A stretch of DNA of 64,000 bases from Amphiscolops sp. MND2022 (GCA_964187785.1 OZ076409.1:68822001-68886000); one strand, 5' to 3'; positions 501 through 52,207 are shown, counted from the first letter of the stretch. Numbers and translations: made by a program. Notes: generated from the sequence alone by a model not told the origin.

Positions 501-562
501 GGCAGCGACAAAAATTAGACACATGGAGGAAAATCAAAGTCTTCGAGATAGAAAGCACTAAC

Positions 563-5643: not shown

Positions 5644-5805
5644 TATTACCCTCTGATTTGTAAACCCTCTGATGTCTTCGGTTGACAAACGTTGCCGATC
5701 GGTTCGCCTGTTTTCTTTTTGAAGAGGTGGACTGGTCGGCTAATCCAGCTACCCTCTGTTCCGGAGAGGCTCTTCCAGTTAGTAACTGGTATGTGCCCCC
5801 CAGCC

Positions 5806-5874
5806 TGAAATTCTTTTTGTCGTCAGAGACGTCCACTAGGCACCATGCGAGGAGGTTGAATTTCATCGCCCAGC
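5806..5874 (-). ncRNA. HDV-like self-cleaving ribozyme at the RTE 5' end
   Basis: P1 GCUGGGC/GCCUAGU with G1-U wobble; P2 UGAAAUUC/GAAUUUCA; P3 ACC/GGU; L3 UCCUCGCAU; GG for P1.1; P4 CGUC-UCU-GACG; J4/2 ACAAAAA with candidate catalytic C. G1 (5874) abuts the TSD. Confidence 0.85.
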
Positions 5875-5885
5875 TATTACATATA

Positions 5886-6012
5886 ACCTCAATCAGAATT
5901 GGATCGTCGTCATCAATCAGCGTTTCTTAAAAAACGCTTCTGTATTCATCATGTGACCCCAGCCCGGGCGGCAGACAAAAAAATCCAACCAACATAGGAA
6001 ACATAAAAGAAC
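5886..6012 (-). mobile_element. 5'-truncated retroposed element (family B) ending in a box C/D-like module
   Basis: TSD TTTATTACATATA at 3983-3995 and 6013-6025. Minus strand reads ATGATGA...CTGA-TTGATGA-CGACGATCCAATT-CTGA. Homologous to 31991-32246. Confidence 0.75.
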
Positions 6013-6753
6013 TTTATTACATATAGTAAAAAAATAGTATTTTTTAAAAAAAGTCTGTATATCATTGCAGCTTTGAAAAAAATTGTTTCTACTGGTCGAC
6101 AGGGATAGTGGCTGGTATGGGGTACCTTTTTCGCCCGAATTGTCACCGAAACGTCCAGAATCTCTCGTTGCATACCACGGGTGTGTGTCTTCTCCCCCCA
6201 ACATGATGTTTCACGTGGCACTTGATCGATCACGAAGATCCATGATATCTGATAGTGGAAAAAAGCACCCCAATTTCTTCAGTTGAAAAGCCTCTTTTGG
6301 TTTATAGCGGAAAAAAAGCGTTCCGCAAGCAGAGACTGCCAATTTTTTAAGGCACAATGGGACTCATCGAAGATTTTTTGAAAATGGTTGCAGAAAAAAT
6401 TCAATTTTTTTTCAGAAAAAGCAGCTTAAATTTTTCATTTTAAGACATTTTCTGGGGTCAAAGTCACATGACTCAAAGTCATTTGGCTTAAGAATTTGAA
6501 GCCGAATCACCATAAAACTAAGTCCATTCTCACTCCAGCACTGGTCAGAAAAACAACTTATTCAAAAAACCAAAAACGGACTTTTCAAGAAACAAAAACA
6601 CCAAACAAAAATTGTCCAAAACGTTCAGCCTGTTTGTCGTCTGGCTTGGTCGCTTCGCTCCCCTCGCCAAGTAGCAACATTGAGGCATGGTTTATGGCCA
6701 TATTTATAAAGAATCAAAAAAGGTAGGAAAATTGACTTGTATAATTTGTTTAT

Positions 6754-12100: not shown

Positions 12101-13667
12101 GATCCAACTGGTAGTTTTAAGTTTTCGTTGAATAAATACAAACAGGCCTCTCAATAGTTCTGCGGCTTGAAGGCTTAACAAACAAACTAATCACTTTTTA
12201 ACTAATCACTTGCGGGTGAAGTTGTCGCAGGCTCAATTGTTTTTAAAGAATCATAATAGGTAGAACCCTTGACTTGTATAATTTCAGTTTATAAGGGGGA
12301 AAGAGTATGGAAGAATTTATCTTCAACATGAACACCCCGAGAATTTTATTTGTTGCAGCTTTAATATGATGATTCTATTTCATATCATCAGATATAAGGA
12401 TTCCAAAACCCTTCTGTATCGTAAATTTGCGAATTACAACTGCAGAGAAGTAGAATTCTACATCGTTAGCGTGGAAGGCAAGATGGGAACATTTGTCGAC
12501 ATTGTGTTAGTTGATGCTTATCACTCCATCTTTTACGACGAGACAATTCTAGCTGAAAATGGAGCTTTTGTTTCTTATTTGCAATAAGTTTAGCGTCATC
12601 TGAGCAAAGCAGGGGTAACGAAGAAAAAGTAAATTCGATGAAATCGAGACTTCGGGAACTCCACTCGGTACTTTTTTAAATCCAGAAGAGTTACTTGTCA
12701 CGCGAACTTTCTGTTGGCGATTCGTAAGATAGGATTTATTTTAGTTAAGTCTTTTCCGATCAATGCCAAATTTAGAGAGCTTGAATAAACGTAAACCGTG
12801 ATACACGTTGTCAAAGTCATTCTCATAGTCTTAGTCAATATATATTACGTCTACACAAGGCTCCGACTCGAGTGCATTGTATATCGTTTCATCATATATC
12901 TATAATTGAGGCATATAGGATCTACCTTTGCGGAAACCGTATTGTGCAGCATGAAACAGCTGCTCAAAGAGAGGATACAAATATGAGAAACAACAACGTT
13001 CAAAGGTTTTCAAGATCATGCAAAGAAGTGACACGGGTTGGTAGTTGAGCTGTCTGATTTTGATCCTTTCTTGTGGACAGGACTAACAATCGAGTTCCTC
13101 CAAACAGAGGGGAAAGCAGCAAACTGCCTAATTTTATAAAATATTTGGCTGATGGATTTGCTAAGCATTTTTTGATTGTTCTGGAAATTTGGTCTGGACA
13201 AGTTGCTTTTCTGTAATCGATGCTTTTGCGAACGAGCGCATCCTACCTTCGGATGTATCAAAGTCGTCGGAACGAGATTCAAAAGTTTCAACGGGTCGAA
13301 AAGCAGAAAACCCCTTGAAAATAGAAGCATAGTGCTTGGAGAAAAGAGAAGTTTGTGAAATTGAATTCGAAGCAACTTCCGGTTTGAGATTAACAGTGGC
13401 TGGGATTGTGGTCGATATAAAAGTGCGAAACGATTTGAAGAATTCATCAGTAAATTTAATGTCAAGTAGTTTAGTTTTAAAACCCGTGTCTTCTGCAAAA
13501 TTTTTTTTCATTCTATAAAAGTTTCAATCTGCCTATACATTTCAATTTGCCCGTTGCAACATTCAAACGCCGTCCTGTAGAGTGTCTTCGAATGAATTAC
13601 CCATTTTTGTGAATGATTTTTCATGGTCATTCAAGAGAAATGTGAAATGTAATTGTCTTTAACGACT
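9198..13667 (-). mobile_element. Degenerate CR1/L2-group LINE fragments in a ~1.87-kb tandem array
   Basis: RT remnants (WRNSIVSPVHKKGSKSD, SYLTNRQQKVRV, SGVP, GILISDDMKWNHHI) and a C-terminal CICG...H..FYC knuckle. Blocks recur at ~9600, ~11470 and ~13337. The same family occurs at 6705-7730 and 7963-8470. Confidence 0.8.
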
Positions 13668-16600
13668 AGGACAATCTGCCTAATTGTTGTGTTAGACTTA
13701 TTAAATAGAGATGGTAATGTTTTGAACTTGAGACTGGATAACATCTCTGACGCTGTTTTGTTGGTTTGTCGCTGCACTTGGGCTGAAAGAACCATCACAA
13801 CCCGGTGAGATAATCCATTTGTATTTCATTTTATCAATTCAAGGTTTTTTCATACAAGGATTGCTTCACTGCTGTTGCGATTGATTTTTTTGGGGAGATT
13901 GGCACACACAAATGTGTATTCCTGCAATTGGTTAGGTTTCGACGTTGAGTTGTGATGAAAAACAACGAAACCTGCAACGCTCTGAAGTGTCTGAAGCCCT
14001 CAGGGTTGAAAGACTGGGTAAACTGTAGCCTTTGCAACGGATGGGCTTATATAAAACGAGCCATATTATCAAAAACGGTGTCCCGGAACCTTGCCGAATT
14101 AAACTGTTGTAGATGCTCTTCAGTGAACACAATCCCTCAGTGTCATGATGATAATTTTAGACTAGACACCATTTTTAAATCAGGCGTTGCTCACTTGAAA
14201 AGTGTTCTTAAAAGTTCACGGATCCCTCTAGCTGAAAACTTGATATCTAAAATTAATGATATTTGTGAAACACCAACAAATAGTGCCGTGTGGTGCATAT
14301 TGCTCTCCTCTCTAAGCTGCTTTTTGGAAAAACCACCTGAAAGGTTGTAAACGTCAGATGTCATCACTCGGTGCAATAATCAACAAGCGTATTCAGAATG
14401 GTGTCATTGAGAAAAGACCGAAACGCGACAGAAAACCTCAGCAGAAAAGCGAGTTAGATCGACGACTGCGTTCCATTTGCAATAAATTAGACGAAGGTGA
14501 TGTTAAGGCCACAATCAGAATGGCGGTAGGCGACGAAGAGACTGCAGATTTCAAGGTCGACAACTACGCGGCCCTCAAGTTGAAACATCCGCAAAGGGAA
14601 ACTTGCACTGTTCCGGACCCCACAGATAACGATTGTTTCTCAACCTCCAAATTTATTGTCCACAAAGCTCTCATGTCCTTCCCCAACGGCTCTAGTGTAA
14701 GGTTGGATGGCATCTCGCCCCAAAACTTGAATGTATGGACTGCCAAGTCGAACGGGCAAACTGGACTGAATCTTCTCAGAGCCTTAACAAATCTTGTGAA
14801 TGTGATTCTCGAAGGAAAAGTACCTTTCGAATATCGGCCGTATTTCTTTGGTGCGAAACTAATTGCACTGAAAAAGCCTGATGGAGGACTTCGTCCTATC
14901 GCTGTAGGCAATACCTTCCGCCGGTTATCCGCAAAATGCGCCGGATGCCATGTCTTTGAATCACGTCAGGCAAGATACGGAAGCCGACAAGTAGGTGTAG
15001 GCACCAAAAGGGGCGCTGAATTGGCCTCACATGTTTTCCGTTGTTTGATAGAAAGCGCCCAGCCCAAAGAAAACGTAATTTTGAAAATTGACTTTGAAAA
15101 CGATTTCAATTCGATTAACCGACAATTCATGCTAGAGAAAACTGTTGGAAAACTTTTGGTACTAACACTCGGCGTACAGTCAACCAAGTTTTCTTTTTTA
15201 CGGTGATTCAGTAATCAAATCTTGTGAAGGGACTAGCAAGTAGATCATCAGTCTCCAGCTTTGTTTCGGCTTCCATTCAGGCTCTAATTGACAGTTTGGA
15301 GTCGAAAATAAATTTATGGTACCTTGACAATGGAAATTTAAGTGATGATTACAGAACCGTTTTGAAAGATCCCAAAAAAATAGTTGATGCGGAAAAAACG
15401 CTGGGTTTCAAAATTAAACTCATGAAATGTGAAATTTTTTCCTTGAGGATATCACTGGAAAACGCCGAATAAAAATTTTTGGCATCTTTCCCAAAACTTT
15501 GCCCGGGATCAAAACATCAAAGAAAGATGAACCTATCATTCTTGGTTCAACGCTCGGCCCGAATTCACAAGCAGACTTCTTGGAAAAGAAAATCAATGAA
15601 CAACAAAAAGTTAATGGAATTGTTGAAAAGCTAGATGCGCACTGTGGTTTTTTTATACAGAAAATTGCTTCAGTCTGCCAAAGTTGTTGTACGTCCTGAG
15701 AACCAGTACATGTTTTAATCACCCAGCTTTCTTGGAAAAGTATGACAAAACGGTACGCGACGGGCTTCCCAGGGTGTGTAACGTGAACTTCGATGATATT
15801 TCGAGTACTCGGCTGGCTCTGTCCGCTGAAATGGGCGGTCTTGGGGTGTCATTGGCATCATTATTAGAACTTCCCGCCTTTTTGGCCTCAGCTTTTGGTG
15901 CCAGTGACTTTCTCACGACGATTTTTTTGGAAACATTCGAAGATGTTTCATTTACAAAAGCGCTTGCGAAATGGTTGAGTTTGACGAATGAACAGGAAAG
16001 TCCTCTCGATGGAACCCAGAAAAATTGGACAAAACCTGTCTACGTCAAAACCGCCCCATTTGATTTCAAAAAGGGATGACAAACGTTCGAAAGTTTTTAA
16101 CGCTCATCAAGGCAAGTTCGGGTCTCAATGGCTCAACGTCGTTCCTTGTAAGAACCTAGGCCTGAAGCTTGTAAGATCAGCAACTTCGGATTGCAATTGG
16201 TTTACGTCTCGGAGCCAACATTTGCGTTGCGCATACGTGCTACTGTGGTAAAAGAGTGTAACGGGACGGCTTACACGGTCTTTCTTGCACCAAGAGTGCT
16301 CGTCGTTTTTCAAGTCATGCTACTGTCAATTATCGCATTAAGCAGACATTAGGCTCTCTCGATTCGCCTGCAATGCTCAAACTGCGTGGACTCTACCGAA
16401 CTGATGGCAAACATCCAGATGGTGTTACCATGATTCCTTGGGAAATGGTTAAACAGCTGGTGTGGGATGTCACGGTTGTGGATGCTCTTGCACCCAGTCG
16501 CCTGAATCAAGGCTCTTTATGCAACCCAGGAACTACCGCCACCGAGGCTGAAGTGCGTGAAATTGAGAAGTATCGCGAATTAATGGACAATGGATTCGTT

Positions 16601-16974
16601 TTTCAACCAGTGGCCTTGGAAGTACAGGGTTCTTTAGGCGAGAGCGTGAAATTTTTATCACGCGTCTCTGTAAAATGCTCCCTCGTTCGCACGACGATCA
16701 ACGAGCTGGCCGCTTTTTGAAGCAGCGGATTTCAATGGCTCTCCAGATTGGCAATGCGGCCTGTGTTCTAGGAACTGTGAGCGACAGAGTTGCGTCCGAA
16801 GAAATTTAATAATTTATTTTATTTTTTAAAAAAAACCTCTATATCACCGCAGCTTTAAAAATTTCTACCAGTCGACTGGGATAGTAGTTTGTTGGCTGGT
16901 CTACTGGAATAGTGGCTAGTACGGTTTTCCCTACGTTCGTTGCAGTGCAGACCACGGGTGTGTGTTTTCTCCCC

Positions 16975-17790
16975 CAGGCTATTCAATCTCAAAATCAATC
17001 CCAAACCCAATCTCACTCTCAAACTCAATCTTTTCCAATTCAAACCCAATCTCAATCCCTTCCCTACAAAATTTATAGGTTCAATCCCAATATCAATCCT
17101 GCTTTTGACTTTGACTTTCTTCTGCAATAGCCAGTAAAAATTTGTAATATGAGCGCGCATTACATTTCATTGATCATGTCTAGTCTTCTCATTTAATTTT
17201 CAGATGGCAGATGTACATGTAGTGGAAGACAACGACGAGAATGGAGCAAAAGCAGGTCCAAGTACGTCACGGATACTGGTTGAGTTCCGCTTGTGCGATA
17301 CAAAAGGCTCGGACGTGCATCAAGAAATAGGAGCCTCAAAATTTGAAGTTGAAGCGTACATGAAGAACTTACGTCCCACTTCAGTTGATACGGAACGATT
17401 ACTTTCAATTTCTCGGATCTCTAAGAACTCCTTCAAGGTCGCTTGACACCGGGAAATCATCACCGAAGTGTGTACTTGCGTAAAAATGAGCACTTACTGT
17501 ATGATTAATTTGTTCGCTTATTTTCTCTTTTTTTTTATCCAAAAAATGTTACATGAACCATTGTTTTAGATTAATCAGTTAAAAGTAGTTTAAATGACTC
17601 AAAAAATTCGGGTTCAGGATTTTTGATTTTGTAGTGGAAATATTCGAAATCTACGTTAAAAATTGATTATGACCTCGAAAATCTAGTTTTTTCTCAATCC
17701 CTAAGCGCTAAGGATGACCAATTCTAATCTCAATCCCAAAATAGAAAACCAATCTTCAATGTTCAGAAATTCAAGCGCTTGAATTGCCTG
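16975..17790 (+). mobile_element. Non-autonomous hAT element (hAT-A) in the CRE 3' UTR
   Basis: 8-bp TSD TTCTCCCC (16967-16974, 17791-17798). TIRs CAGGCTATTCAA / TTGAATTGCCTG. Remnant RPTSVDTERLLSISR. Further copies at 22634-23497, 28316-29165 and (partial) ~30951-31275. Confidence 0.9.
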
Positions 17791-17792
17791 TT

Positions 17793-17860
17793 CTCCCCCC
17801 AACATGATGATACACATGGCACTTGATTGATGACGAAGATCCATGATATCTGATAGAGGG
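17793..17860 (+). ncRNA. Box C/D snoRNA-like module at the CRE 3' terminus (family A)
   Basis: CTCCCCCC-AAC-ATGATGA(C)-TACACATGGCAC-TTGA(D')-T-TGATGA(C')-CGAAGATCCATGATAT-CTGA(D)-TAGAGGG-A tail. Copies at ~6193, 23500, 29168, 31278, 32285, 50756 and 52139. Confidence 0.6.
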
Positions 17861-20800
17861 AAAAAAGGACAATCTGTCATGCTCCCTTTGAGTTCCCTGT
17901 TGAATCATTTCACCTGAGCGTTATCCGAGAAATCCCAATGCAAATACTAGCAAGATGTTGAAAAAGCATCATTTGCTAAAAGTAATGAATTTGCTATCCA
18001 CTTCGTCGTTGTAGCAGACATATTCAACGAAAGACTTTCTAGAATCAAGAAACTTTTAGCTGCAGCAATTTTTGGAGTACCATTTACTACTAGTGGTGTA
18101 CGTGATGATGAAAAATCATTTTTGATCCAACTGGAAGATTTAACTTTCCGTTGAATAAAGCAAACAGGTGAGCTTAACAAATAAACTAATCACTTGTTAA
18201 TTAATCACTTACAGGTGTTGTCTCAGGCTCAATTGCATGCGATACGAAGTGGTCCCGGAAAAGTCAACACTGTACTGCCACCTGCAGTACTTCCGCTTTG
18301 GACTAAGGTCTATTCAGCTACAACAAACATTTTCGCTGACAAATTAGTACTATTTGACCCTATTATAATGTAAGGTGTTTCACTGTTGTTTTATATTTCT
18401 AGTACTATTGACAGACTCAATTCACTGAGTACAGGAAGCGTAAACAACAGGAATACGTATGAATGCTGCATTTACATGTTAAAATGTGATTAACTTAAAA
18501 CACGATTTGAGGAGCGATACACAGAACATTTACATTTCACAATTTCACATGATAGGTTCATTAATTGGAGAAGTTGAATGAATTGTAGTAGGTGCTCTTT
18601 AGTGAACAAAATCCCTCAGTGTCAAAATGATAACTTAGACCAGACACCCTTTTTATTTCAGGCCTTGTTCACTAGAAAAAAGTTCCTAAAAACTCACGCA
18701 TCCCCCTAGCTGAAAACTTGATACCCAAAACTAATGATACTCGTGAAACCCTGTCAAATATTGCCTTGTGGTGCTTACTGCTCTCCTCTCTAAGCTGTTT
18801 TCTGGAAAAACCACCTCGAGGAGTTAAACGTCAGAGGTCATCCCTCAGTGCAATTATCAACAAGCGTATTCGGGATGGTGTCATTGAGAAAGAACCGAAA
18901 CGCGACAGAAGACCGCACAAAAAAGCGAGTTAGATCGACGACTGCGTTCCATTTGCACTAAATTAGACGAAGGTAAGGGTAGGGCCAGAATCAGAATGGC
19001 GGTAGGCGACGAAGAGATTGCAGATTTCACGGTCAACAACTACGCGGCCCTCAAGCTGAAACATCCGCAAGGGGAAACTTGCACTGTTCCGGACCCCACA
19101 GATTAAGATTGTTTCTCAACCTCCAAATTTGTTGTCCACAAAGCTCTCATGTCCTTCCCCAACGGCTTTAGTGCAGGGTCGGATGGCATTTCGCCCCAAA
19201 TTTTGAAAAATTTGACTGCCAAGTCGAACGGGCAAACTGGACTGAAATTTCTCAGCGCCTTAACAAATCTTGTGAATGTGATTCTCGAAGGAAAAGTACC
19301 TTTCGAAGATCGGCCGTATTTCTTTGGTGCGAAACTAATTGCACTGAAAAAGCCTGATGGAGGACTTCGTCCTATCGCTGTAGGCAATACCTTCCGCCAG
19401 TTATCCGCAAAATGCGCCAGATACCATGTCTTCGAATCACGTCAGGCAAGATACGGAAGCCGACAAGTAGGTGTAGGCACCAAAACGGGCGCTGAATTGG
19501 CCTCATATGTTTTCCGTTATTTGATAGGAAACCCCCAACCCAAAGAAAACGTAATTTTGAAAATTGACTTTGAAAACGCATTCAGTTCGATTAACCGACA
19601 CCTCATGCTAGAGAAAACTTTTGGTAAACTTTTGGTACTCACACTCGGCGTACAGTCAACCAAGCTTTTGTTTTCGGTGATTCAGTAATCAAATCTTGTG
19701 AAGGGACCCAGCATGTAGATCATCAGACTCCAGCTTGGTTTTCGGATTCCATTCAGGAGTTAATTGACAGTTTGGAGTCGAAAATGAATTTATGGTACCT
19801 TGACGATGGAAATTTAAGTGATGATTACAGAACCGTTTTGAAAGATCCCAAAAACAATAGTTGATGCGGAAAAAACGCTGGGTTTCAAAATTAAACTCAT
19901 GAAATGTGAAATTTTTTCCTTGAGGACATCACTGGAAAACGCCGATCAAAAACTTTTAGCATCTTTCCGAAACTTTGCCCGGGATCAAAACATCAAAGAA
20001 AGATGAACCTATCATTCTTGGTTCAACGCTCGGCCCGAATTCACAAGCAGACTTCTTGGAAAAGAAAATCAATGAACTACAAAAGGTTAATAGAATTGTT
20101 GAAAAGCTAGATGCGCACTGTGGTTTTATTATACAGAAAATTGCTTCAGTCTGTCAAAGTTGTTGTACGTCCTGAGAACCAGTACATGTTTTAATCACCC
20201 AGCTTTCTTGGAAATGTATGACAAAACGGTACGCGACGGGCTTCCAAGGGTGTGTAACGTGAACTTCGACAATATTTCGAGTACTCAGCTGGCTCTGCCC
20301 GCTGATATGGGTGGTCTTGGGTTGTCATCCGCATCATTTTTAGAACTTTCCGCCTTTTTGGGGTCAGCTTTTGGTGCGAGTGACTTTCTCAAGACGATTT
20401 TCTTGGAAACATTCGAAGTTGTTTCGTTTACAAAAGCGCTTGAGAAATAGTTGAGTTTGACGAATGAACAGGAAAGTCCTCTCGATTGACAAAACCTGTC
20501 TACGTCAAAACCGCCCAAGATTTGATTTCAAAAACGGATGACAAACGTTCGAAAGTTTTTACCGCTCATCAAGGCAAGTTCGGGTCTCAATGGCTCAACG
20601 TCGTTCCTTTAAGAACCTAGGCCTGAAGCTTGTAAGATCATCAACTTCGGATTGCAATTGGTTTACGTCTTGGAGCCAACATGTGCGTTGCGCATACGTG
20701 CTACTGTGGTAAAAGAGTTGAACGGGACGGTTTACACGGTCTTTCTTGCACCAAGAGTGCTGGTCGCTTCTCACGTCATGCTACTCTCAAATCTCTCACA

Positions 20801-20972
20801 AAGCAGACGTTGTGATCTCTCGACTTGCCTTCAGTGCTCGAACCGCGTGGACTTTACCGAACTGATGGCAAACGCCCAGACGGAGTTTCGATGATTCCTT
20901 GGGCAATGGGTAAACAGCGGGTGTGGGATGTCACGGTTGTGGATCCACTTGCATCCAGCCGTCTGTATCATG

Positions 20973-22144
20973 CAGGGATTGCAATTCCAAATGCAATTAA
21001 TTGCATGCAAATGCAATTAATTGCGGCTTTGAGGCATGCAATTTCAATTAGCAATCAACAAATACACTAAGGGCAAGTAGCAATTAGAGCAAAAGTTTAT
21101 GCAGTTTTTGCAATTTTTCAGGGTTCTTCCGCAAAAAATAAGATTTTTTATAATATATTTATTTTAATTTAACTTAAATTGAATTCCAAATAGAAATGTC
21201 GGGCTCTTGCCTAAATTAATTCGCGACAATGCAACAAGATGGAACAGTTTGTTGGACATGCTTGTGCGCTTTTTACATTTGCGAACTTATCTCAATGTTA
21301 TTGATGTCGAAGGTGACCTTGAAATGTATAATTGCGAGGCGCTGCAGCAGTTAATCAATGTTTTACAACCGCTTAAAGACAAAACACTCGAGTTGCAAAA
21401 GAAATCCGCTAATGCCAAAACAGCTGTTGATGCAATTAATTATCTGAGAATGGTAGGTTCCAGAGAAGCAACGATGCAGCAGCCTATAAAGATGTTCTCA
21501 GCAAATGGATAGATGGAAACAGTGTAGTGGAAGGTCTAATTCATTCCTGAGGAAACTTTCATGACTTTATTGTTTCTAACATGCCGCGCAATGAACATGC
21601 TGTTACATCTGATCATGCATACAATCCACTGAGGGTCATGGTTTTCAGTGAATTTATGAAGCGAAGCTGTCTCGACGACGAAATTGATATAATACCATTT
21701 CTTGAGAATTTTAGATCAGAGAGTGTTGACCCCGAGAAACGTTTTCCTTTTTGAAGACTGACGACAAATTATCTTCAAAAACCGACAAATTATCTTCAAA
21801 ACCGTCTTTCGAGAAACGGGTTTATCAAGAAAAACAAACACCTGTTGGAGTAACAGATAAATAATGTATATATAATTTTGGAGTAATGCAGTGCTTTCTT
21901 TCAAAGCATTTTATTTCACGCTGAGTGTAATTTATGTTTTCTTTTTTTAGTTTTGTTTTTAATACGAGATATCTCACAAGCTGCTTCTTCACCAGATTCA
22001 TTGTCAAATTCTGATATCCTGATAGATACTGAAAAACAATTGCAATTACAATGATTAACATAATAAATTGGGCACTTGCATTTAGCAATTATTTTTTGCT
22101 CTGCTTTTTCAATAATCGCATTTTGCAATTAATTGCAATCCCTG
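20973..22144 (+). mobile_element. Deleted hAT transposon (hAT-B) inserted in the CRE endonuclease region
   Basis: 14-bp TIR CAGGGATTGCAATT. Degenerate 8-bp TSD GTATCATG/GAATCAAG. Transposase remnant LIRDNATRWNSLLDMLVRFL. Confidence 0.9.
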
Positions 22145-25100
22145 GAATCAAGGCTCTTTATGCAACCCGGGAACCACCGCCACCGAAGCTGAAGCGTGTA
22201 AAATTGAGAAGTAACGCGAAATAATAGACAATGGATTTTTTTCAACCGGTGGCCTTGGAAGTACAGGGTTCTTCAGGCGAGAGCAGTGAAATTTCCATCA
22301 CGCGTCTCTGAAATGCTCTGTCGTTCGCACCACGATCAACGAGTTGGCAGCTTTTTGAAGCAACGGATTTCAATGGCTCTTCAGATCGGCAATGCGGCCT
22401 AAGTTCTAGGAACTCTGAGTGACAGAGATGCGTTCTAAGAAATTTATTACATCTAGCTATTTTTTAAACCTCTATATCATTGCAGCTTTAAAAGAAAATT
22501 CAACCCGTCGACTGCGATAGGGGGTGGTATGAGTAGTTTGTTGGTTGTTCCTTTTTGCTACTGGTCTACTGGGATAGTGGCTGGTATATGTTCCCTACTT
22601 TCGCTGCAGACCACGGGTGTGTGTTTTCTCCCCCAGGCTATTCAATCTCAAAATCAATCCCAAACCCAATCTCACTCTCAAACTCAATCTTTTCCAATTC
22701 AAACCCAATCTCAATCCCTTCCTTACAAAGTTTTTAGGTTCAATCCCAATATCAATCTTGCTTTTGACTATGACTTTCTTCTGCAATAGCCAGTAAAAAT
22801 TTGTAATATGAGCGCGCGTTACATTTCATTCATCATGTCTAGTCTTTTCATTTGTTTTTCAGATGGCAGATGTACATGTAGTGGAAGACAACGAGGAGAA
22901 TTCTTCAAATGGAGCAGAAGCAGGTCCAAGTACGTCACAAATACTAGTTGAGTTCTTCTTGTGCGATACAAAAGGCTCGGACGTGCATCAAGAATTAGAA
23001 GCCTCAAAATTTGAAGTTGAAGCGTACATGAAGAACTTTCGTCCCACTTCAGTTGATACGGAACGATTACTTTCAATTTCTCGGATCTCTGAGAACTCCT
23101 TCAAGGTCGCTTGACACCGGAAAATCATCACCGAAATGTGTACTTGCGTAAAAATGAGCACTTACTGTATGAATAATTTGTTCGCTTATTTTCTCTTTTG
23201 TTTATCCAAAAAATGTTACATGAACCATTGTTTTAGAATATTCAGTTAAAAGTAGTTTAAACTAATCAAAAAATTTGGGTTCAGGACTTTTGATTTTGTA
23301 GTGGAAGTTCAAATTCATGGTCAAAAATCACCTTATGTTCGAAATCTACGTTAAAAATTGATTATGACCTCGAAAATCTAGTTTTTTTCTCAATCCCTAA
23401 GCGCTAAGACTGATCAATTCTAATCTCAATTCCAGAATAGAAAACCAATCTTCAATCTTTAGAAATTCAAGCGCTTGAATTGCGCGTGAATTGCCTGTTC
23501 TCCCACCAACATGATGATACACATGGCACTTGATTGATGACGAAGATCCATGATATCTGATAGAGGGAAAAAAGGACAATCTGTCATGCTCCCTTGGAGT
23601 TCCCTGTTGAATCATTTCACCTGAGCGTTTTCCGAGAATTCCCAATGCAAATACTAGCAAGATGTTGAAAAAGCATCATTTGCTAAAAGTAATGAATTTG
23701 CTATCCTTCGTCGTTGTAGCGGACATATTCAACGAAGGACTTTCTACAATCAGCAAACTTTTAGCTAGAGCAATTTTTGGAGTACCATTTACTACTACTG
23801 GTGTACGTGATGATGAAAAATCATTTTTGATCCAACTGGAAGATTTAAGTTTCCGTTGAATAAAGCAAACAGGTGGGCTTAACAAATAAACTAATCACTT
23901 GTTAATTAATCACTTACAGGTGTTGTCTCAGGCCCAATTGCATGCGATACGAAGTGGTCCCGGAAAAGCCAACACTGTACTGCCACCTGCAGTACTTCCG
24001 ATTTGGACTAAGGTCTATTCAGCTACAACAAACATTTTCGCTGACAAATTAGTACTATTTGACCCTACTATAATGTAAGGTGTTTCACTGTTGTTTTATA
24101 TTTCTGGTACTATTGACAGACTCAATTCACTGAGTACAGGAAGCGTAAACAACAGGAATACGTATGAATGCTGCATTTACATGTTAAAATGTGATTAATT
24201 TGAAACACGATTTGAGGAGCGATACCCAGAATATTTACATTTCACAATTTCACATGATAGGTTCATTAGTTGGAGAAGTTGAATGAAATGTAGTAGGTGC
24301 TCTTTAGTGAACACAATCCCTCAGTGTCAAAATGATAACTTACTCCAAACACCCTTTTTATTTCAGGCCTTGTTCACTAGAAAAAAGTTCCTAAAAACTC
24401 ACGCATCCCCCTAGCTGAAAACTTGATACCCAAAACTAATGATACTCGTGAAACCCTGTCAAATATTGCCAGTGGTGCTTACTGCTCTCCTCTCTAAGCT
24501 GTTTTCTGGAAAAACCACCTCGAGGAGTTAAACGTCAGAGGTCATCCTTCAGTGCAATTATCAACAAGCGTATTCGGGATGGTGTCATTGAGAAAGAACC
24601 GAAACGCTACAGAAGACCGCACAAAAAAGCGAGTTGGATCGACGACTGCGTTCCATTTGCACTAAATTAGACGAAGCTAAGGTTAGGGCCAGAATCAGAA
24701 TGGCGGTAGGCGACGAAGAGATTGCAGATTTCACGGTCAACAACTACGCGGCCCTCAAGCTGAAACATCCGCAAAGGGAAACTTGCACTGTTCCGGACCC
24801 CACAGATTAAGATTGTTTCTCAACCTCCAAATTTGTTGTCCACAAAGCTCTCATGTCCTTCCCCAACGGCTTTAGTGCAGGGTTGGATGGCATTTCGCCC
24901 CAGATTTTGAAAAATTTGACTGCCAAGTCGAACGGGCAAACTGGACTGAATTTTCTCAGCGCCTTAACAAATCTTGTGAATGTGATTCTCGAAGGAAAAG
25001 TACCTTTCGAAGATCGGCCGTATTTCTTTGGTGCGAAACTAATTGCACTGAAAAAGCCTGATGGAGGACTTCGTCCTATCGCTGTAGGCAATACCTTCCG

Positions 25101-26654
25101 CCGGTTATCCGCAAAATGCGCCGGATGCCATGTCTTCGAATCACGTCAGGCAAGATACGGAAGCCGACAAGTAGGTGTAGGCACCAAAACGGGCGCTGAA
25201 TTGGCCTCATACGTTTTCCGTTGTTTGATAGGAAACCCCCAACCCAAAGAAAACGTAATTTTGAAAATTGACTTTGAAAACGCATTCAGTTCGATTAACC
25301 GACACCTCATGCTAGAGAAAACTTTTGGTAAACTTTTGGTACTCACACTCGGCGTACAGTCAACCAAGCTTTTGTTTTCGGTGATTCAGTAATCAAATCT
25401 TGTGAAGGGACCCAGCATGTAGATCATCAGACTCCAGCTTGGTTTTCGGATTCCATTCAGGAGTTAATTGACAGTTTGGAGTCGAAAATGAATTTATGGT
25501 ACCTTGACGATGGAAATCTAAGTGATGATTACAGAATCGTTTTGAAAGATCTCAAAAAAATAGTTGAAGCGGAAAAAACGCTGGGATTCAAAATTAAACC
25601 CACGAATTGCGAATATTTTTTCTTAGGTGACATCACTGAGAACCGACGATCGACAATTTTATCATCTTTCCGAAAACTTTGCCCCGGGATCAAAACACCA
25701 AAGAAAGGTGAAATTATCATTCTTGGTTCACAGCTCGGCCCGAAATCACAAGCAGACTTATTGGAAAAGAAAAGTATTGAACTGGAAAAAGGGAATGGAA
25801 TTGTTGAAAAACTAGATGCGCACTATGGTTTTTTTATGTTGAAAAATGCTTCCCGAGAACCAGTACCTGTTTTAACTATCCAGTTCTCTTGGAAAAATAT
25901 GACAAACTCGAACGCGACGGGCTTTCCAAAGTGTGTAACGTGAACTCCGACAATATTTCGAGTACTCAGCTGGCTCTGCCCGCTGATATGGGTGGTCTTG
26001 GGTTGTCATCCGCATCATTTTTAGAACTTTCCGCCTTTTTGGTTTCAGCTTTTGGTGCGAGTGACTTTCTCAAGACGATTTTCTTGGAAACATTCGAAGA
26101 TGTTTCGTTTACAAAAGCACTTGAGAAATAGTTGAGTTTGACGAATGAACAGGAAAGTCCTCTCGATGGACAAAACCTGTCTACGTCAAAACCGCCCAAG
26201 ATTTGATTTCAAAAACGGATGACAAACGTTCGAAAGTTTTTAACGCTCATCAAGGCAAGTTCGGGTCTCAATGGCTCAACGTCGTTCCTTGTAAGAACCT
26301 AGGCCTGAAGCTTGTAAGATCAACAACTTCGGATTGCAATTGGTTTACGTCTCGGAGCCAACATTTGCGTTGCGCATACGTGCTACTGTGGTAAAAGAGT
26401 TGAACGGGACGGTTTACACGGTCTTTCTTGCACCAAGAGTGCTGGTCGCTTCTCGCGTCATGCTACTCTCAAATCTCTCACAAAGCAGACGTTGTGATCT
26501 CTCGACTTGCCATCAGTGCTCGAACCGCGTGGACTTTACAGAACTGATGGCAAACGCCCAGACGGAGTTTCGATGATTCCTTGGGCAATGGGTAAACAGC
26601 GGGTGTGGGATGTCATGGTTGTGGATCCACTTGCATCCAGCCGTCTGTATCATG

Positions 26655-27821: not shown

Positions 27822-30800
27822 GAATCAAGGCTCTTTATGCAACCCGGGAACCACCGCCACCGAAGCTGAAGCGCGTAAAATTGAGAAGTAACGCGAAATA
27901 ATAGACAATTGATATTTTTCAACCGGTGGCCTTGGAAGTACAGGGTTCTTCAGGCGAGAGCAGTGAAATTTCCATCACGCGTCTCTGAAATGCTCTGTCG
28001 TTCGCACCACGATCAACGAGTTGGCAGGTTTTTGAAGCAACGGATTTCAATGGCTCTTCAGATCGGCAATGCGGCCTGTGTTCTAGGAACTCTGAGTGAC
28101 AGAGATGCGTTCTAAGAAATTTATTACATCTAGCTATTTTTTAAACCTCTATATCATTGCAGCTTTAAACGAAAATTCTACCCATCGACTGCGATAGTGG
28201 GTGGTATGAGTAGTTTGTTGGTTGTTCCTTTTTGCTACTGGTCTACTGGGAAAGTGGCTGGTATATGTTCCCTACTTTCGCTGCAGTGCAGACCACGGGT
28301 GTGTGTTTTCTCCCCCAGGCTATTCAATCTCAAAATCAATCCCAAACCCAATCTCACTCAAACTCAATCTTTTCCAATTCAAACCCAATCTCAATCCCTT
28401 CCTTACAAAGTTTTTAGGTTCAATCCCAATATCAATCTTGCTTTTGACTATGACTTTCTTCTGCAATAGCCAGTAAATATTTGTAATATGAGCGCGCGTT
28501 ACATTTCATTCATCATGTCTAGTCTTTTCATTTGTTTTTCAGATGGCAGATGTACATGTAGTGGAAGACAACAACGAGAATTCTTCAAATGGAGCAGAAG
28601 CAGGTCCAAGTACGTCACAAATACTGGTTGAGTTCCGCTTGTGCGACACAAAAGGCTCGGACGTGCATCAAGAATTAGAAGCCTCAAAATTTGAAGTTGA
28701 AGCGTACATGAAGAACTTTCGTCCCACTTCAGTAGATACGGAACGATTACTTTCAATTTCTCGGATCTCTAAGAACTCCTTCAAGGTCGCTTGACACCGG
28801 AAAATCATCACCGAAATGTGTACTTGCGTAAAAATGAGCACTTACTGTATGAATAATTTGTTCGCTTATTTTCTCTTTTGTTTATCCAATAAATGTTACA
28901 TGAACCATTGTTTTAGATTATTCAGTTAAAGGTAGTTTAAACTAATCGAAAATTTGGGTTCAGGATTTTTGATTTTGTTGTGGAAACTCAAACTCTTGGT
29001 CAAATATTACTTTTTATTCGAAATCTACGTTAAAAATTGATTATGACCTCGAAAATCTAGTTTTTTTCTCAATCCCTAAGCGCTAAGATTGACCAATTCT
29101 AATCTCAATCCCAAAATAGAAAACCAATCTTTAATCTTTAAAAATTCAAGCGCTTGAATTGCCTGTTCTCCCCCCAACATGATGATACACATGGCACTTG
29201 ATTGATGACGAAGATCCATGATATCTGATAGAGGGAAAAAGGACAATCTGTCATGCTCCCTTGGAGTTCCCTGTTGAATCATTTCACCTGAGCGTTTTCC
29301 GAGAAATCCCAATGCAAATACTAGCAAGATGTTGAAAAAGCATCATTTGCTAAAAGTAATGAATTTGCTATCCTTCGTCGTTGTAGCGGACATATTCAAC
29401 GAAGGACTTTCTACGATTCTACAGCAATTTTTGGAGTACCATTTACTACTACTGGTGTACGTGATGATGAAAAATCATTTTTGATCCAACTGGAAGATTT
29501 AAGTTTCCGTTGAATAAAGCAAACAGGTGGGCTTAACAAATAAACTAATCACTTGTTAATTAATCACTTACAGGTGTTGTCTCAGGCTCAATTGCATGCG
29601 ATACGAAGCGGTCCCGGAAAAGCCAACACTGTACTGCCACCTGCAGTACTTCCGCTTTGGACTAAGGTCTATTCAGCTACAACAAACATTTTCGCTGACA
29701 AATTAGTACTATTTGACCCTATTATATTGTAAGGTGTTTTTTTTATATTTCTAGCACTGTTGTTTTATATTTCTAGTACTATTGACAGACTCAATTCACT
29801 GAGTACAGGAAGCATAAACAACAGGAATACGTATGAATGCTGCACTTACATGTTGAAATGTGATTAATTTAAAACACGATTTGAGGAGCGATACACAGAA
29901 CATTTACATTTCACAATTTCACATGATAGGTTCATTAATTGTAGAAGTTGATTGAAATGTAGTAGGTGCTCTTTAGTGAACACAATCCCTCAGTGTCAAG
30001 ATGATAACTTAGACCAGACACCCTTTTTATTTCAGGCCTTGTTCACTAGAAAAAAGTTCCTAAAAACTCACGGATCCTCCTAGCTGAAAACTTGATACCC
30101 AAAACTAATGATACTCGTGAAACCCTGTCAAATATTGCCTTGTGGTGCTTACTGCTCTCCTCTCTAAGCTGTTTTCTGGAAAAACCACCTCGAGGAGTTA
30201 AACGTCAGAGGTCATCCCTCAGTGCAGTTATCAACAAGCGTATTCGGGATGGTGTCATTGAGAAAGAACCGAAACGCGACAGAAGACCGCACAAAAAAGC
30301 GAGTTAGATCGACGACTGCGTTCCATTTGCACTAAATTAGACGAAGGTAAGGTTAGGGCCAGAATCAGAATGGCGGTAGGTGACGAAGAGATTGCAGATT
30401 TCACGGTCGACAACTACGCGGCCCTCAAGCTGAAACATCCGCTAAGGGAAACTTCCACTGTTCCGGACCCCACAGATATCGATTGTTTCTCAACCTCCGA
30501 ATTTGTTGTACACAAAGCTCTCATGTCCTTCCCCAATGGCTTTAGTGCAGGGTTGGATGGCATTTCGCCCCAAATTTTGAAAAATTTGACTGCCAAGTCG
30601 AACGGGCAAACTGGACTGAATCTTCTCAGAGCCTTAACAAATCTTGTAAATGTGATTCTCGAAGGAAAAGTACCTTTCGAACATCGGCCGTACTTCTTTG
30701 GTGCGAAACTAATTGCACTGGAAAAGCCTGATGGAGGACTTCGTCCTATCGCTGTAGGCACTACTTTCCGCCGGTTGTCAGCAAAAGGTGCCGGATACCA

Positions 30801-31623
30801 TGTCTTCGAATCACGTCAAGTAAGATATGGAAATCAACAAGTAGGTGTAGGCACCAAAAGGGGCGCTGAATTGGCCTCACATGTTTTCCGTTGTTTGGTA
30901 GAAAACCCCCAACCCAAAGAAAACGTAATTTTGAAAATTGACTTTATGTATTACTGTATGAATAATTTGTTCGCTCGTTTTCTCTGTTGTTTATCCAATA
31001 AATGTTACATGAACCATAGTTTTAGGTTAATCAGTTAAAGGTAGTTTAGATTAATCGAAAAGTTCGGGTTCAGGATTTTTGATTTTGTTGTGGAAATTCA
31101 AACTCTTGGTCAAATATCACTTTTTATTCGAAATCTACGTTAAAAATTGATTATGACCTCGAAAATCTAGTTTTTTTTTCAATCCCTAAGCGCTAAGATT
31201 GACCAATTCTAATCTCAATCCCAAAATAGAAAACCAATCTTTAATCTTTAGAAATTCAAGCGCTTGAATTGCCTGTTCTCCCCCCAACATGATGATACAC
31301 ATGGCACTTGATTGATGACGAAGATCCATGATATCTGATAGAGGCAAAAAAGGACAATCTGTCATGCTCCCTTGGAGTTCCCTGTTGAATCATTTCACCT
31401 GAGCGTTTTCCGAGAAATCCCAATGCAAATACTAGCAAGATGTTGTAAAAGCATCATTTGCTAAAAGTAATGAATTTGCTATCCACTTCGTCGTTGTAGC
31501 GGACATATTCAACGAAGGACTTTCTACAAAAACTTTGTTCTCAGGTTTTTCAAACGTTCAAAAAGGGCCTGTCTGAACTTTTTTCAGCGGCCAATTGAAG
31601 TCAACGGTTTTGTCTGCAAGTAA

Positions 31624-31990: not shown

Positions 31991-32246
31991 GGGTATATCA
32001 GAATTGGATCGTCGTCATCAATCAGCGTTTTAAAAAACGCTTCTTTATTCATCATGTGCCCCCAGCCCGGGCGACAGACAAAAAACTCCAACCAAGATAG
32101 GAAACAAAAAGAATTGAGAAACGAGATCATGCAACCTGAGAGTTCAATGGATCGAGGACTTTTCAATTCAGAAACTCAATGAGGCAAAGAACACATTGAT
32201 TTCTTGATTAAACAAAACGGTCATCGAACACAGATTTACAAGTTAC
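31991..32246 (-). mobile_element. Family B retroposed fragment (256 bp) with C/D-like 3' end, inside a CRE 3' UTR
   Basis: TSD GTTCCCTACG (31981-31990, 32247-32256). On the minus strand: C box 32055-32049, D' 32025-32022, C' 32021-32015, D 32001-31998. The host CRE 3' UTR continues to the A tail at ~32359. Confidence 0.8.
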
Positions 32247-33330
32247 GTTCCCTACGTTCGTTGCAGACCACGGGTGTGTGTCTTCTCCCCCCAACATGAT
32301 GATACACATGGCACTTGATTGATGACGAAGATCCATGATATCTGATAGAGGGAAAAAAATTCATAAAGAGAATGACATCGTCTCGAACAATTTCATAATT
32401 TGGCATTGGCAAGAGATTCAGAATAAATCTTTCGGAGGTACAAATTTATTCAGTCTGGTTAAGTTATATTTCTTAACAAATGAACCAGTACTTTCTACAT
32501 GAAGCATGAGATATGCTGAAAATGCGGTAAAATCAAACAGGTTGATAACTTCGAAGGAAATGCTCACTCAACGCACTATCCTTCAGAATTACAGCCAATC
32601 AGAGCGCTGGTTGATGTAGTCTTTTGGACTACCAGTCCCCAATTCTATCACACGCTTTACCTCTATGCAGTATGATGATTTGACATTAAAAGTATACCGC
32701 CACCCCCAGTGCTTCAACAAACAACTATATTTCATTTCACTACGGTCAGTTCTATTCATAGCGTTTTTGCTGAACTAGAAAGTATAGATGTAATATTGGG
32801 ATGTTATCCCAGAAACGAGTGTGTAAGCCTCCAGATTGACAGCGAAATAGAACACATTCTTATAAGCTAAACAAAGCCTACATGAGAAGATTTTAGGTCT
32901 CTACCAAACACGAATAGTAGGGAAAATGGAGAGATCACGACAGAAACTGCTAGAATGACAAACTCTGAGATTGCAAGTCGAATATCGAAGAAACTAGATG
33001 GACTTACAATGGAACTCAGTTCTCAGACTTTACGATCCAATAATTCCGCAACTACTGAGAAAGTCCTTCTAACATTTCAGAAATCTAGTTATGCAAGACA
33101 ACTGGTTTAGCACAAAAGTGGATCTTCGGTTCAGCGGGCTACACAGGATGGTATGTTACGCGGAAAAACAGGTAAAACCATTTTGGTCCACTTCGCTAGG
33201 CCAAATGGTGCAATTTGACACCATAATTTTTTGTAGAACTTTTAAGAACTATTTTGGTCAGTTCGTGTGGATAGAAAAAAAAGAGTCACTATAATAGTCG
33301 CGTTTCACTTCATGAAGCGCCGACTAAAAA

Positions 33331-50261: not shown

Positions 50262-50845
50262 AGTCGCCTGAATCAAGGCTCTTTATGCAACCCGGGAACC
50301 ACCGCCACCGAGGCTGAAGCGCGTAAAATTGAGACTCATAGCGAATTAATAGACAATGGATACATTTTTCAGTCAGTGGCCTTGGAAGTACAGGGTTCTT
50401 TAGGCGAGAGCAGTGAAATTTTCATCACGCGTCTCTGTAAAATGCTCTGTCGTTCGCACGACGATCAACGAGCTGGCTGCTTTTTGAAGCAACGGATTTC
50501 AATGGCTCTCCAGATCGGCAATGCGGCCTGTGTTCTAGGAACTGTGAGCGACAGAGATGCGTTCGAAGAAATTTATTACATATAGCCTAATTTTTCTTAC
50601 CTTTATATCAAAGCAGCTATAAAAAAATTTCACCGGTCGACTGCATAGTGGCTGGTTTGAGTAGTTTGTTGGTTGTTTTTTTTTGTTACTGGTCTACTGG
50701 TATAGTGGCTGGTATGGGGTTCCCTACTTTCGTTGCAGACCACGGGTGTGTGTCTCCTCCCCCAACATGATGATACACATGGCACTTGATTGATGACGAA
50801 GATCCATGATATCTGATAGAGAAAAAAACAAAGAAGAAAAAAAAG
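50262..50845 (+). mobile_element. 5'-truncated CRE 3' fragment with uninterrupted 3' UTR
   Basis: ORF end ...DRDAFEEIYYI* at 50585, then a ~240-nt UTR, the C/D-like module and an A-rich tail. Another fragment lies at ~51850-52208. Confidence 0.85.
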
Positions 50846-51740: not shown

Positions 51741-52207
51741 AGAAAATATGAAGACCGCGTCGTCAAAGTCGAGAAGACCACATTATGTCCGCTGATTTTT
51801 TCATGCATTGGAGGCGCAGGCCCATAAGCGACCAAAGCGATGAAAAATATCTCTGTAAAATGCTGTCGTTAGCACGACGATCAACGAGCCGGCAGTTTTT
51901 TGAATCGGCAATGCGGCCGGTGTCCTAGGAACTGTGCGCGACAGATGCGTTCGAAGAAGTTTTTTACATATAGTTTATTTCTCTTAAAAACCTATATCAT
52001 TGCAGCTTTTTAAAAAATGTTTCTACCGGTCGACTGTGATAGTGGCTTGTATGAACAGTTTGTTGGTTATTTTTTTGTTACTGGGATGGTGGCTGGTATG
52101 GGGTTCCCTACTTTCAATGCAGAAAACGGCTGTGTCTTCTCCCTCCAACATGATGATACACATGGCACTTGATGACGAAGATCCATGATAACTGATAGAG
52201 GGGAAAA

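What the first reader, a model, noticed from the sequence alone, without database searches (positions are those of the whole stretch)
17793..17876. CRE-type LINE whose 3' terminus is a box C/D snoRNA-like module
Seen: the last ~70 nt before the A tail read CCCCC-aac-ATGATGA-12 nt-TTGA-t-TGATGA-16 nt-CTGA-taGAGGG. That is box C, D', C', box D and a possible closing stem. Eight copies occur in the window (~6193, 17793, 23500, 29168, 31278, 32285, 50756, 52139); four derive from one tandem array, and the 6193 and 52139 copies are partly degenerate. The 11-bp TSD (13668-13678 / 17866-17876) places the module inside the mobile unit, so it is not a targeted snoRNA locus. Known: RUGAUGA/CUGA form a K-turn bound by Snu13/15.5K; snoRNP domains protect ends of telomerase RNAs and sno-lncRNAs; platypus snoRTE is a snoRNA-headed SINE. 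Inference: an autonomous-type retrotransposon may use the C/D snoRNP to protect, localise or define its template 3' end, or may disperse guide RNAs. I do not know of a description of this.
Basis: partly seen in the sequence, partly recalled or inferred. Interest (0 to 1): 0.88.

Follow-up and report, generated by a model that had tools for sequence, protein, structure and literature searches.

The report
Retrotransposons ending in a snoRNA
Two related jumping-gene families in the genome of a marine worm (an acoel) end in a small-nucleolar-RNA-like cap where a long poly(A) tail is usual, which suggests they borrow the host's snoRNA proteins to finish and protect their RNA.

Summary
Confirmed and extended. 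The four boxes (C, D', C', D) are present and close the 3' end of an abundant CRE-like LINE family (A): 65 of 78 copies picked by protein align through it, target-site duplications enclose it, and empty-site paralogues lie in the window. A sister family B (55% protein identity, synonymous sites saturated, unrelated UTR) ends in the same boxes (21 of 22 letters identical) with a different spacer and two compensatory pair swaps. One relative from another organism has four boxes with other guides; 22 of 23 relatives lack them. Copies stop 1-7 nt after box D with short, impure or no A tails, like retroposed snoRNAs. Both families start with the host spliced-leader exon, echoing Trypanosoma telomerase RNA. 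B's guide resembles SNORD19/69 and a host intronic snoRNA; A's guides have no rRNA target. Against: no RNA or binding data, within-family conservation is not significant against synonymous sites, and A and B exchange sequence. Most likely a captured snoRNA kept as a snoRNP-bound 3' end (0.62). No description found in the searches made.

The parts
13668..13678 (+). left target-site duplication (11 bp; its last base is also the first base of the spliced-leader sequence)
   Evidence: empty-site paralogues at 9985 and 11857
13678..13708 (+). 5' end derived from the host spliced-leader exon (29 of 31 identical), joined directly to the base after the family's internal AG acceptor
13955..16815 (+). 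remnant of the single ORF of family A (PHD finger, reverse transcriptase, CCHC knuckle, restriction-like endonuclease), broken by stops and frameshifts; the end coordinate is approximate
   Evidence: less broken copies
16816..16974 (+). upstream part of the family A 3' UTR
16975..17790 (.). hAT-type MITE inserted just upstream of the module; not part of the LINE
   Evidence: 12-bp inverted ends, 8-bp duplication at 16967-16974 / 17791-17798; 'hAT' is recalled from these features
17804..17810 (+). box C
17811..17822 (+). spacer / D' guide (12 nt); no rRNA target found; can pair with the D-side spacer
17823..17826 (+). box D' (TTGA; the same variant is used by host intronic snoRNAs)
17830..17836 (+). 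box C' (ATGACGA), after a 3-nt loop
17837..17849 (+). spacer / D guide (13 nt); shares 9 letters with family B; out of register for rRNA methylation
17850..17853 (+). box D
17854..17865 (+). 7-nt terminal sequence and short oligo(A)
17866..17876 (+). right target-site duplication
23511..23560 (+). family A module, tandem-array copy
29179..29228 (+). family A module, tandem-array copy
31289..31338 (+). family A module, tandem-array copy
32296..32345 (+). family A module of an independent 5'-truncated copy
50264..50842 (+). independent 5'-truncated family A copy (module at 50767-50816) inside an 11-bp duplication (50253-50263 / 50843-50853)
6203..6252 (+). degenerate family A module
52150..52195 (+). 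degenerate family A module (4-nt deletion)
31998..32055 (-). family B module (C, 23-nt hairpin spacer, D', C', SNORD19/69-like guide, D) of a truncated copy with a target-site duplication
5893..5952 (-). family B module of a second truncated copy with a target-site duplication

Best explanation
An ancestor of this CRE-like LINE lineage captured a compact box C/D snoRNA, probably of the SNORD19/69 family, at its 3' end and has kept the protein-binding boxes. Shown: the module is the last 50-60 nt of the mobile unit in two families; its boxes and the pairs next to the C/D kink-turn are kept while spacers and UTR turn over; copies end 1-7 nt past box D with a short, impure or absent A tail; both families begin with spliced-leader sequence. 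Inferred: Snu13, Nop56/58 and fibrillarin assemble on the boxes of the nascent read-through transcript; the exosome trims back to the particle; a TRAMP-like enzyme adds a few A's; this protected end takes the place of cleavage and polyadenylation and is where target-primed reverse transcription starts. Guiding rRNA methylation is vestigial (B) or lost (A).
For: Terminal position: 26 of 30, then 65 of 78 A and 43 of 58 B copies chosen by protein align through the module. Duplications of 9 bp or more around truncated copies: 19 of 72 A and 14 of 40 B, against 28 of 2222 mismatched flank pairs. A versus B: protein 312 of 563, fourfold sites 42 of 134 (31%, random 26%); boxes 21 of 22, non-box module letters 21 of 41 (Fisher p 2e-4), UTR and D' spacer no better than shuffles. 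Compensatory swaps next to the C/D helix: T-A in A (61 of 64 copies) is A-T in B (41 of 41); A-T in A (63 of 64) is T-A in B (36 of 41); G.T in A is G-C in B at C'/D'. A third lineage, L177 (59% and 57% to A and B), has four boxes with unrelated guides (0 of 5000 shuffles). Ends: T at +1 in 46 of 47 B ends, then 25 different hexamers; longest A run at most 9 in 88 A ends and at most 8 in 47 B ends; this is the signature of type-1 snoRNA retroposons, 0-9 extra bases and a short G-containing A-rich tail (PMC1687206, passages). Origin: B aligns weakly to SNORD19B (18.2 bits, cut-off 50); its guide's best D+5 matches are host 18S G652 and 28S G3784; a search built on that prediction found a host intronic snoRNA array of the same compact build with a perfect 11-bp guide to G3784; SNORD19/69 is a dual 18S/28S guide family (PMC6984369, passages).
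Against: No RNA, binding or methylation data. Within each family the boxes carry fewer shared substitutions than the UTR (0 of 22 vs 18 of 134, p 0.054 in A; 0 of 22 vs 29 of 152, p 0.014 in B) but not fewer than fourfold sites of the ORF (p 0.22-0.61). A and B share a 90-94% identical 5' end, and young B carries a piece of A's 3' UTR, so the module may have moved between them after they split and the 31% baseline overstates its age. Part of the D guide is also shared (9 of 13, 0 of 200 shuffles), which fits plain recognition of the 3' end by the reverse transcriptase. No Rfam family reaches its cut-off; folding is unremarkable (z -0.86 to 0.07); B tails do not favour a closing stem. B's guide score alone is matched by 35 of 150 shuffles. 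The four-box pattern was written after L177 had been seen, L177 is one contig, and its element end is unknown. A nucleolus-bound RNA with almost no poly(A) must still be exported and translated, and this is not explained.
Confidence: 0.62

Rival explanations
1. The module is a snoRNA relic that is kept only because the element's own reverse transcriptase recognises this 3' sequence or fold; host snoRNP proteins play no part.
For: RLE-type LINEs depend on 3'-terminal RNA signals (established knowledge, recalled). Non-box letters of the D guide are shared between A and B, and in A the whole module is as invariant as the boxes.
Against: The letters kept are the four box consensus words, across a spacer change from 12 to 23-25 nt, with compensatory pairs at the kink-turn helix. 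L177 has boxes but none of the shared guide word. Snoretroposon-like tails are not predicted.
Confidence: 0.2
2. The module is released or acts in place as a working methylation guide, so the LINE spreads guide RNAs and may supplement the host's set (B on 18S G652 or 28S G3784).
For: B's guide pairs 9 bp (1 G.U) with 18S G652 in D+5 register, where the host snoRNA found pairs only 8 bp; its two differences from the host guide keep G.U pairs with 28S.
Against: A has no target. B's guide is 10 nt, and its 3' letters also pair with the bases after box C. B's D' spacer folds on itself. The host has at least 4 intronic copies with a perfect 28S guide. I noticed no marked excess of module-only retrocopies among the lengths, but did not test this formally.
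Confidence: 0.08
3. A snoRNA was captured by chance, spread between A and B by template switching, and is hitch-hiking without selection.
For: A and B do exchange 5' and UTR sequence; the within-family test against fourfold sites is not significant.
Against: The D' spacer is wholly replaced while 21 of 22 box letters stay; there are compensatory swaps; a third lineage in another organism has the boxes.
Confidence: 0.07
4. The boxes are a chance product of an AT-rich, TGA-rich 3' end.
For: No Rfam hit above cut-off; the same short pattern occurs 6 times in viral contigs without a following D box.
Against: The four-box order arose in 0, 1 and 0 of 5000 shuffles of the A, B and L177 3' regions, and the B guide predicted a real host snoRNA target.
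Confidence: 0.03

Closest known systems
Trypanosoma brucei telomerase RNA (C/D domain bound by Nop58; trans-spliced) - PMC10061497, passages and reference titles read
   Same: An RNA that serves a reverse transcriptase and carries a spliced-leader 5' end and a box C/D domain.
   Different: That RNA is non-coding, is not a mobile element and is copied only over a short template. Here the RNA encodes its own enzyme, is copied whole, and the module is its last 50-60 nt. Binding is shown there and untested here.
Type-1 snoRNA retroposons (snoRTs) - PMC1687206, passages read
   Same: snoRNA sequence followed by 0-9 bases, a short G-containing A-rich tail and a target-site duplication.
   Different: snoRTs are passive copies that start at the mature snoRNA 5' end. 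Here the snoRNA-like part is fused behind a protein-coding LINE and copied by it in many copies.
Platypus snoRTE / PlatSINE1 - PMC7245038, passages read
   Same: A retroposon family that has a snoRNA-derived part in all copies.
   Different: Non-autonomous SINE with the snoRNA at the 5' end and an RTE tail; here the element is autonomous, CRE-like, and the snoRNA part is the 3' end.
SNORD19/SNORD69 family - PMC6984369, passages read; Rfam RF01183
   Same: Family B's D guide and D box nearly equal the SNORD19B consensus guide and fit the host 18S and 28S sites in D+5 register.
   Different: Score far below the family cut-off; guide only 10 nt with G.U pairs; not intronic; family A is out of register. 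That host G652 and G3784 equal human G683 and G4464 is inferred, not aligned.
CRE clade (CRE1/2, SLACS, CZAR, Cnl1, MoTeR, FoTeR) - PMC12857005, passages read
   Same: One ORF with reverse transcriptase, CCHC knuckle and restriction-like endonuclease motifs in the same order.
   Different: Dispersed rather than targeted to SL genes or telomeres; carries SL sequence as its own 5' end; PHD finger at the N-terminus; snoRNA-like 3' end.
sno-lncRNAs and SPA RNAs (recalled, not read)
   Same: snoRNP used as an end cap on a long RNA.
   Different: Host non-coding RNAs from introns; not mobile, no encoded protein.

Membership tests
CRE-clade RLE non-LTR retrotransposon | single ORF with reverse transcriptase | tested here: met
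   RVT_1 above cut-off in A (62.9 bits) and B (57.1 bits); QQGDP and YLDDG motifs
CRE-clade RLE non-LTR retrotransposon | C-terminal CCHC plus RH..E..RPD..D restriction-like endonuclease motif | tested here: met
   present in A, B and L177 with spacings 1-9-3-8-19-10-15; three spacings are one residue off the SLACS/CRE pattern of PMC12857005, and the residue after RH is A or H, not D/N
CRE-clade RLE non-LTR retrotransposon | phylogenetic grouping with CRE1/SLACS/CZAR/Cnl1 | not tested
   no named reference proteins came up; the clade label rests on motifs and recall
CRE-clade RLE non-LTR retrotransposon | 5'-truncated copies with target-site duplications (TPRT) | tested here: met
   33 of 112 copies with a 9-13 bp duplication against 28 of 2222 controls
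SL-gene-targeted CRE elements (CRE1, SLACS, CZAR) | site-specific insertion in the SL RNA gene array | tested here: not met
   copies are dispersed over the large contigs; 80 kb of the SL array holds other elements but no tblastn match to A or B
box C/D snoRNA | box C near the 5' end and box D at the 3' end, with internal D' and C' | tested here: met
box C/D snoRNA | kink-turn pairing potential of C/D and C'/D' | tested here: met
   G-C and A-T pairs after the GA steps in both families, with compensatory swaps; sequence-level only
box C/D snoRNA | terminal stem | tested here: inconclusive
   the first A-T pair is kept, B tails are no better than random (p 0.40); the host intronic snoRNA copies show no obvious stem either (by eye)
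box C/D snoRNA | guide of 10 nt or more complementary to rRNA in D+5 register | tested here: inconclusive
   not met in A; marginal in B (9 bp with 1 G.U on 18S). 5.8S and snRNAs were not scanned
box C/D snoRNA | exists as an RNA bound by Snu13, Nop56, Nop58 and fibrillarin | not testable with these tools
   needs RIP, gel shift and small-RNA sequencing
SNORD19/SNORD69 family | Rfam model score above the gathering threshold | tested here: not met
   18.2 bits against 50, E 4.3; no hit in the window at gathering
SNORD19/SNORD69 family | antisense element for the 18S-G683 / 28S-G4464 sites | tested here: inconclusive
   B's two best anchored matches are 18S G652 and 28S G3784; equivalence to the human positions is inferred
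snoRTE-type SINE | non-autonomous, snoRNA at the 5' end | tested here: not met
   the element is protein-coding and the module is 3'-terminal

The most novel reading that the evidence does not exclude
A lineage of autonomous LINEs whose RNA is finished like Trypanosoma telomerase RNA, with a spliced-leader cap at the 5' end and a box C/D snoRNP at the 3' end. It replicates without canonical polyadenylation by entering the host snoRNA maturation pathway, has swapped in different snoRNAs in different lineages (L177), and in family B may still guide rRNA methylation.
Probability: 0.4. Interest if true: 0.92.

Novelty: new variant of a known kind. Interest (0 to 1): 0.8.

Why it matters
Non-LTR retrotransposons are generally thought to end in poly(A) or simple repeats, and how their RNA 3' end is made, protected and handed to the reverse transcriptase is understood for few elements. 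A LINE that uses a snoRNP as its end would be a new way to do this. It would parallel telomerase RNAs, whose enzyme is related to these reverse transcriptases, and it makes testable the question whether a snoRNP-ended RNA can be translated and serve as a template for target-primed reverse transcription. A 50-nt portable end cap that still allows priming would also matter to RNA-templated gene insertion, where template stability limits efficiency (inference).

Tried and rejected
Rfam at gathering threshold: nothing in the window; only sub-threshold C/D hits at E up to 10; nothing relevant for L177. Sequencing runs: no RNA holder listed; 4 of the 13 listed runs were laid and hold only short low-depth contigs, so they say nothing on expression. 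Three proteins from other CRE-like families used as queries returned only A and B copies among the 150 scored in each search, so no third family was found in this genome; only about 150 of 2600-4800 candidates were scored each time. A first pattern for a host SNORD19/69 gene missed it (3 hits, control 1); a wider one found it. GTDB genomes gave 1 distant locus, viral contigs none by protein and 6 chance pattern hits without box D. Rejected: targeted insertion into a snoRNA gene (module inside duplications, empty sites lack it); targeting of SL genes; a conserved closing stem; a polyadenylation signal (none within 190 nt of box D in the A consensus; the B consensus has AATACA 54 nt upstream, read AATAAA in an older subfamily, yet B is mostly tailless). 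Minimum-energy folding gave no signal. The within-family test against fourfold sites was inconclusive. Earlier scan findings: nothing on this family. Full-length 5' ends of B were seen in 4 loci only.

Full report
1. Observation. The motif is at 17804-17853 exactly as described, with 6 exact copies in the window and none in 100 shuffles; two degenerate copies complete the eight. Four share both flanks and belong to one tandem array. The 11-bp duplication is real, and paralogous empty sites at 9985 and 11857 carry it once and lack the element. In the array copies an 816-bp MITE sits between the UTR and the module, so the uninterrupted form is best seen at 50264-50842. Rfam gives no hit at its cut-offs; at E up to 10 in a 521-bp stretch, 13 of 15 rows are box C/D families, all far below cut-off. 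The sR5 alignment there suggests that C' is ATGACGA after a TTG loop, and I use that register.

2. The element (family A). The window lies in a 1.07-Gb animal genome whose spliced leader equals the one published for the acoel Symsagittifera roscoffensis (PMC9911081, passages); I take the host to be an acoel and did not establish the species. Less broken copies show one ORF with PHD finger, reverse transcriptase, CCHC knuckle and restriction-like endonuclease. The module query had 1239 candidates, of which 40 were scored. To avoid selecting on the module I picked copies by the endonuclease protein: 26 of 30 had the module within 700 nt, and in the larger set 65 of 78 distinct copies aligned through it; the other 13 break off inside the UTR and, apart from the window copy with its MITE, were not examined one by one. 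Duplications of 9 bp or more enclose 19 of 72 A copies whose 5' end lay in the locus, against 28 of 2222 mismatched flank pairs; a few of the 19 have doubtful offsets. The module is therefore the 3' end of the mobile unit and not a target.

3. On the minus strand at 5893-5952 and 31998-32055 lies a second module. It ends family B (673 candidates, 40 scored), a LINE of the same build: 43 of 58 protein-picked copies align through it and 14 of 40 have duplications. A and B share 312 of 563 residues, and fourfold sites agree at 42 of 134, near the random 26%. Their 3' UTRs and D' spacers (12 against 23-25 nt) align no better than shuffles, yet 21 of 22 box letters are identical, against 21 of 41 non-box letters of the module. 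The two pairs that extend the C/D helix are swapped between families while staying Watson-Crick, and the C'/D' closing pair is G.T in A and G-C in B. Caveat: A and B share a 90-94% identical 5' end and young B carries a piece of A's UTR, so the module may have crossed between them; the comparison inside the module does not depend on this. Within families the boxes have fewer shared substitutions than the UTR but not fewer than fourfold sites, so that test is inconclusive.

4. Other organisms. Of 80 metagenome loci, 23 had the endonuclease end and 200 nt or more downstream; one, L177, has four boxes in order, starting about 105 nt after the stop, with unrelated guides and a hairpin between D' and C' (0 of 5000 shuffles). 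It is the closest relative found (59% to A, 57% to B). The pattern was relaxed after seeing it, and its element end is unknown. L176, equally close, is broken at the ORF end and has no module. Many relatives at 35-47% end in AT-rich UTRs with (TAA)n or A runs. The feature thus looks confined to one branch.

5. The ends. After box D, B keeps one T (46 of 47 ends) and then scatters into 25 hexamers; in the 14 copies with a called duplication it begins 2-25 nt after D, at 7 nt or less in 8 of them. A keeps 5-7 nt and then an impure A-rich tail. The longest A run in the next 25 nt is at most 9 in 88 A ends and at most 8 in 47 B ends. Weber describes retroposed snoRNAs as ending in 0-9 extra bases and a short G-containing A-rich tail, which he ascribes, as a hypothesis, to TRAMP-like adenylation (PMC1687206, passages). 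At the 5' end, 12 of 14 full-length starts match the spliced-leader exon at 24-29 of 31 (the other two are visibly related but more changed). The exon plus GT donor occurs 1241 times in the genome, the listed places forming a 904-bp tandem array with an Sm-type site, control 0. Ten of the 12 keep an inherited, diverged leader plus acceptor; two join the leader directly at the acceptor, as trans-splicing would, although a 6-nt deletion between two AGs would look the same. A and B were not found in the 80 kb of the SL array examined.

6. Guides and origin. Against the host's own 18S and 28S, A's guides do no better than shuffles. B's D guide scores no better than 35 of 150 shuffles either, but its best D+5 matches are 18S G652 and 28S G3784, and Rfam's SNORD19B consensus has nearly the same guide. 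SNORD19/69 are reported as one family with dual 18S/28S targets (PMC6984369, passages); the match of positions to human numbering is my inference. A pattern built from those two sites gave 8 hits, control 0: three B copies, four unremarkable, and one host intronic array of compact snoRNAs with a perfect 11-bp guide to G3784 and the same TTGA D' box as family A. So the site B points to is also the target of a host guide, the host has its own gene for it, and the module resembles host snoRNAs in size and grammar. B's guide differs from the host's by two transitions that leave G.U pairs.

7. How it most likely works. Shown: terminal position, box-specific conservation, compensatory pairs, snoRNA-like tails, leader-derived 5' ends. 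Inferred: the element lacks a usable poly(A) signal and is transcribed into its flank; the C/D proteins bind the boxes; 3' trimming stops at the particle; a short A tail is added; the reverse transcriptase primes there, which explains why each B subfamily carries a few different bases past box D. I give this 0.62. The main rival is that the relic is read only by the element's own enzyme (0.20). A working guide (0.08), neutral hitch-hiking (0.07) and chance (0.03) follow. Open problem: export and translation of such an RNA.

8. Comparison and novelty. It works like the trans-spliced, C/D-bearing telomerase RNA of Trypanosoma brucei (PMC10061497, passages), and its ends look like snoRNA retroposons, but it is neither; it is the reverse of platypus snoRTE, a SINE with the snoRNA at the 5' end (PMC7245038, passages). 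It meets the sequence criteria of a box C/D RNA except a convincing guide, and fails the Rfam score for SNORD19. CRE membership rests on motifs (PMC12857005, passages), not on a tree. Six paper searches on this combination or on the clade (listings and abstract openings only) showed no LINE with a snoRNA 3' end, and the acoel genome paper does not contain the word snoRNA in its main text. No supplements were read; subscription journals and Repbase reports are not covered and could hold a prior note.

9. Verdict. Real, not an artefact; a new variant of RLE LINE with an apparently undescribed 3' end. Interest 0.8. Function awaits binding and RNA-end data.

Noticed in passing
window 13678-13708; L033, L046, L063, L096, L097, L099, L103, L146, L355, L386, L388: Full-length A and B copies begin with a diverged copy of the host spliced-leader exon followed by an AG acceptor; 2 of 12 matched 5' ends (window, L355) lack the 6 nt up to that acceptor and look freshly trans-spliced. 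A and B share about 150 nt of 5' end at 90-94% although their proteins are 55% identical.
   Followed up: partly
G000:C1:16220001-16300000 (L378-L385): The 904-bp SL RNA gene array is heavily invaded by site-specific elements inserted after about base 17 of the SL exon with a duplication of that part: 5-6 kb two-ORF elements that look like Tx1/L1 (label recalled) and several 1.4-2 kb families that keep only an ORF1-like frame.
   Followed up: partly
G000:C2:80044912-80047410 (L258, L266): Array of at least 4 compact (about 57 nt) intronic C/D snoRNAs with D' = TTGA and a perfect 11-bp guide to 28S G3784, between exons of a gene resembling Golgi alpha-mannosidase II (name recalled); Rfam gives them no hit above cut-off.
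   Followed up: partly
window 16975-17790: hAT-type MITE inserted 13 nt upstream of box C, carrying a short frame like a hAT dimerisation domain; amplified with the tandem array.
   Followed up: partly
window 9560-13657 and 13679-31530: Two nested tandem amplifications: a 1.87-kb unit holding the empty target site, and a 5.7-kb unit holding LINE, MITE and flank.
   Followed up: no
L036, L046, L047, L089, L355, window 31998-32345: A and B copies are often found inserted into or right beside each other's 3' ends; not tested against chance.
   Followed up: no
window 37804-41918 (minus) and 43794-48532 (plus): A copia-type and a Pao/BEL-type LTR retrotransposon with interrupted frames.
   Followed up: no
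window 515-2288 and 4124-5926 (minus): Host genes: a Fritz/WDPCP homologue in long open frames and a C2H2 zinc-finger frame; a weak NEMP match at 33453-34379.
   Followed up: no
L105, L091: Host 18S and 28S rRNAs are strongly diverged, and the 28S has long expansions (Rfam match 4407 nt).
   Followed up: no
L177:3593-3639: The D-side spacer of the third-lineage module resembles the U7 Sm site (15 bits, E 0.91); probably chance.
   Followed up: no
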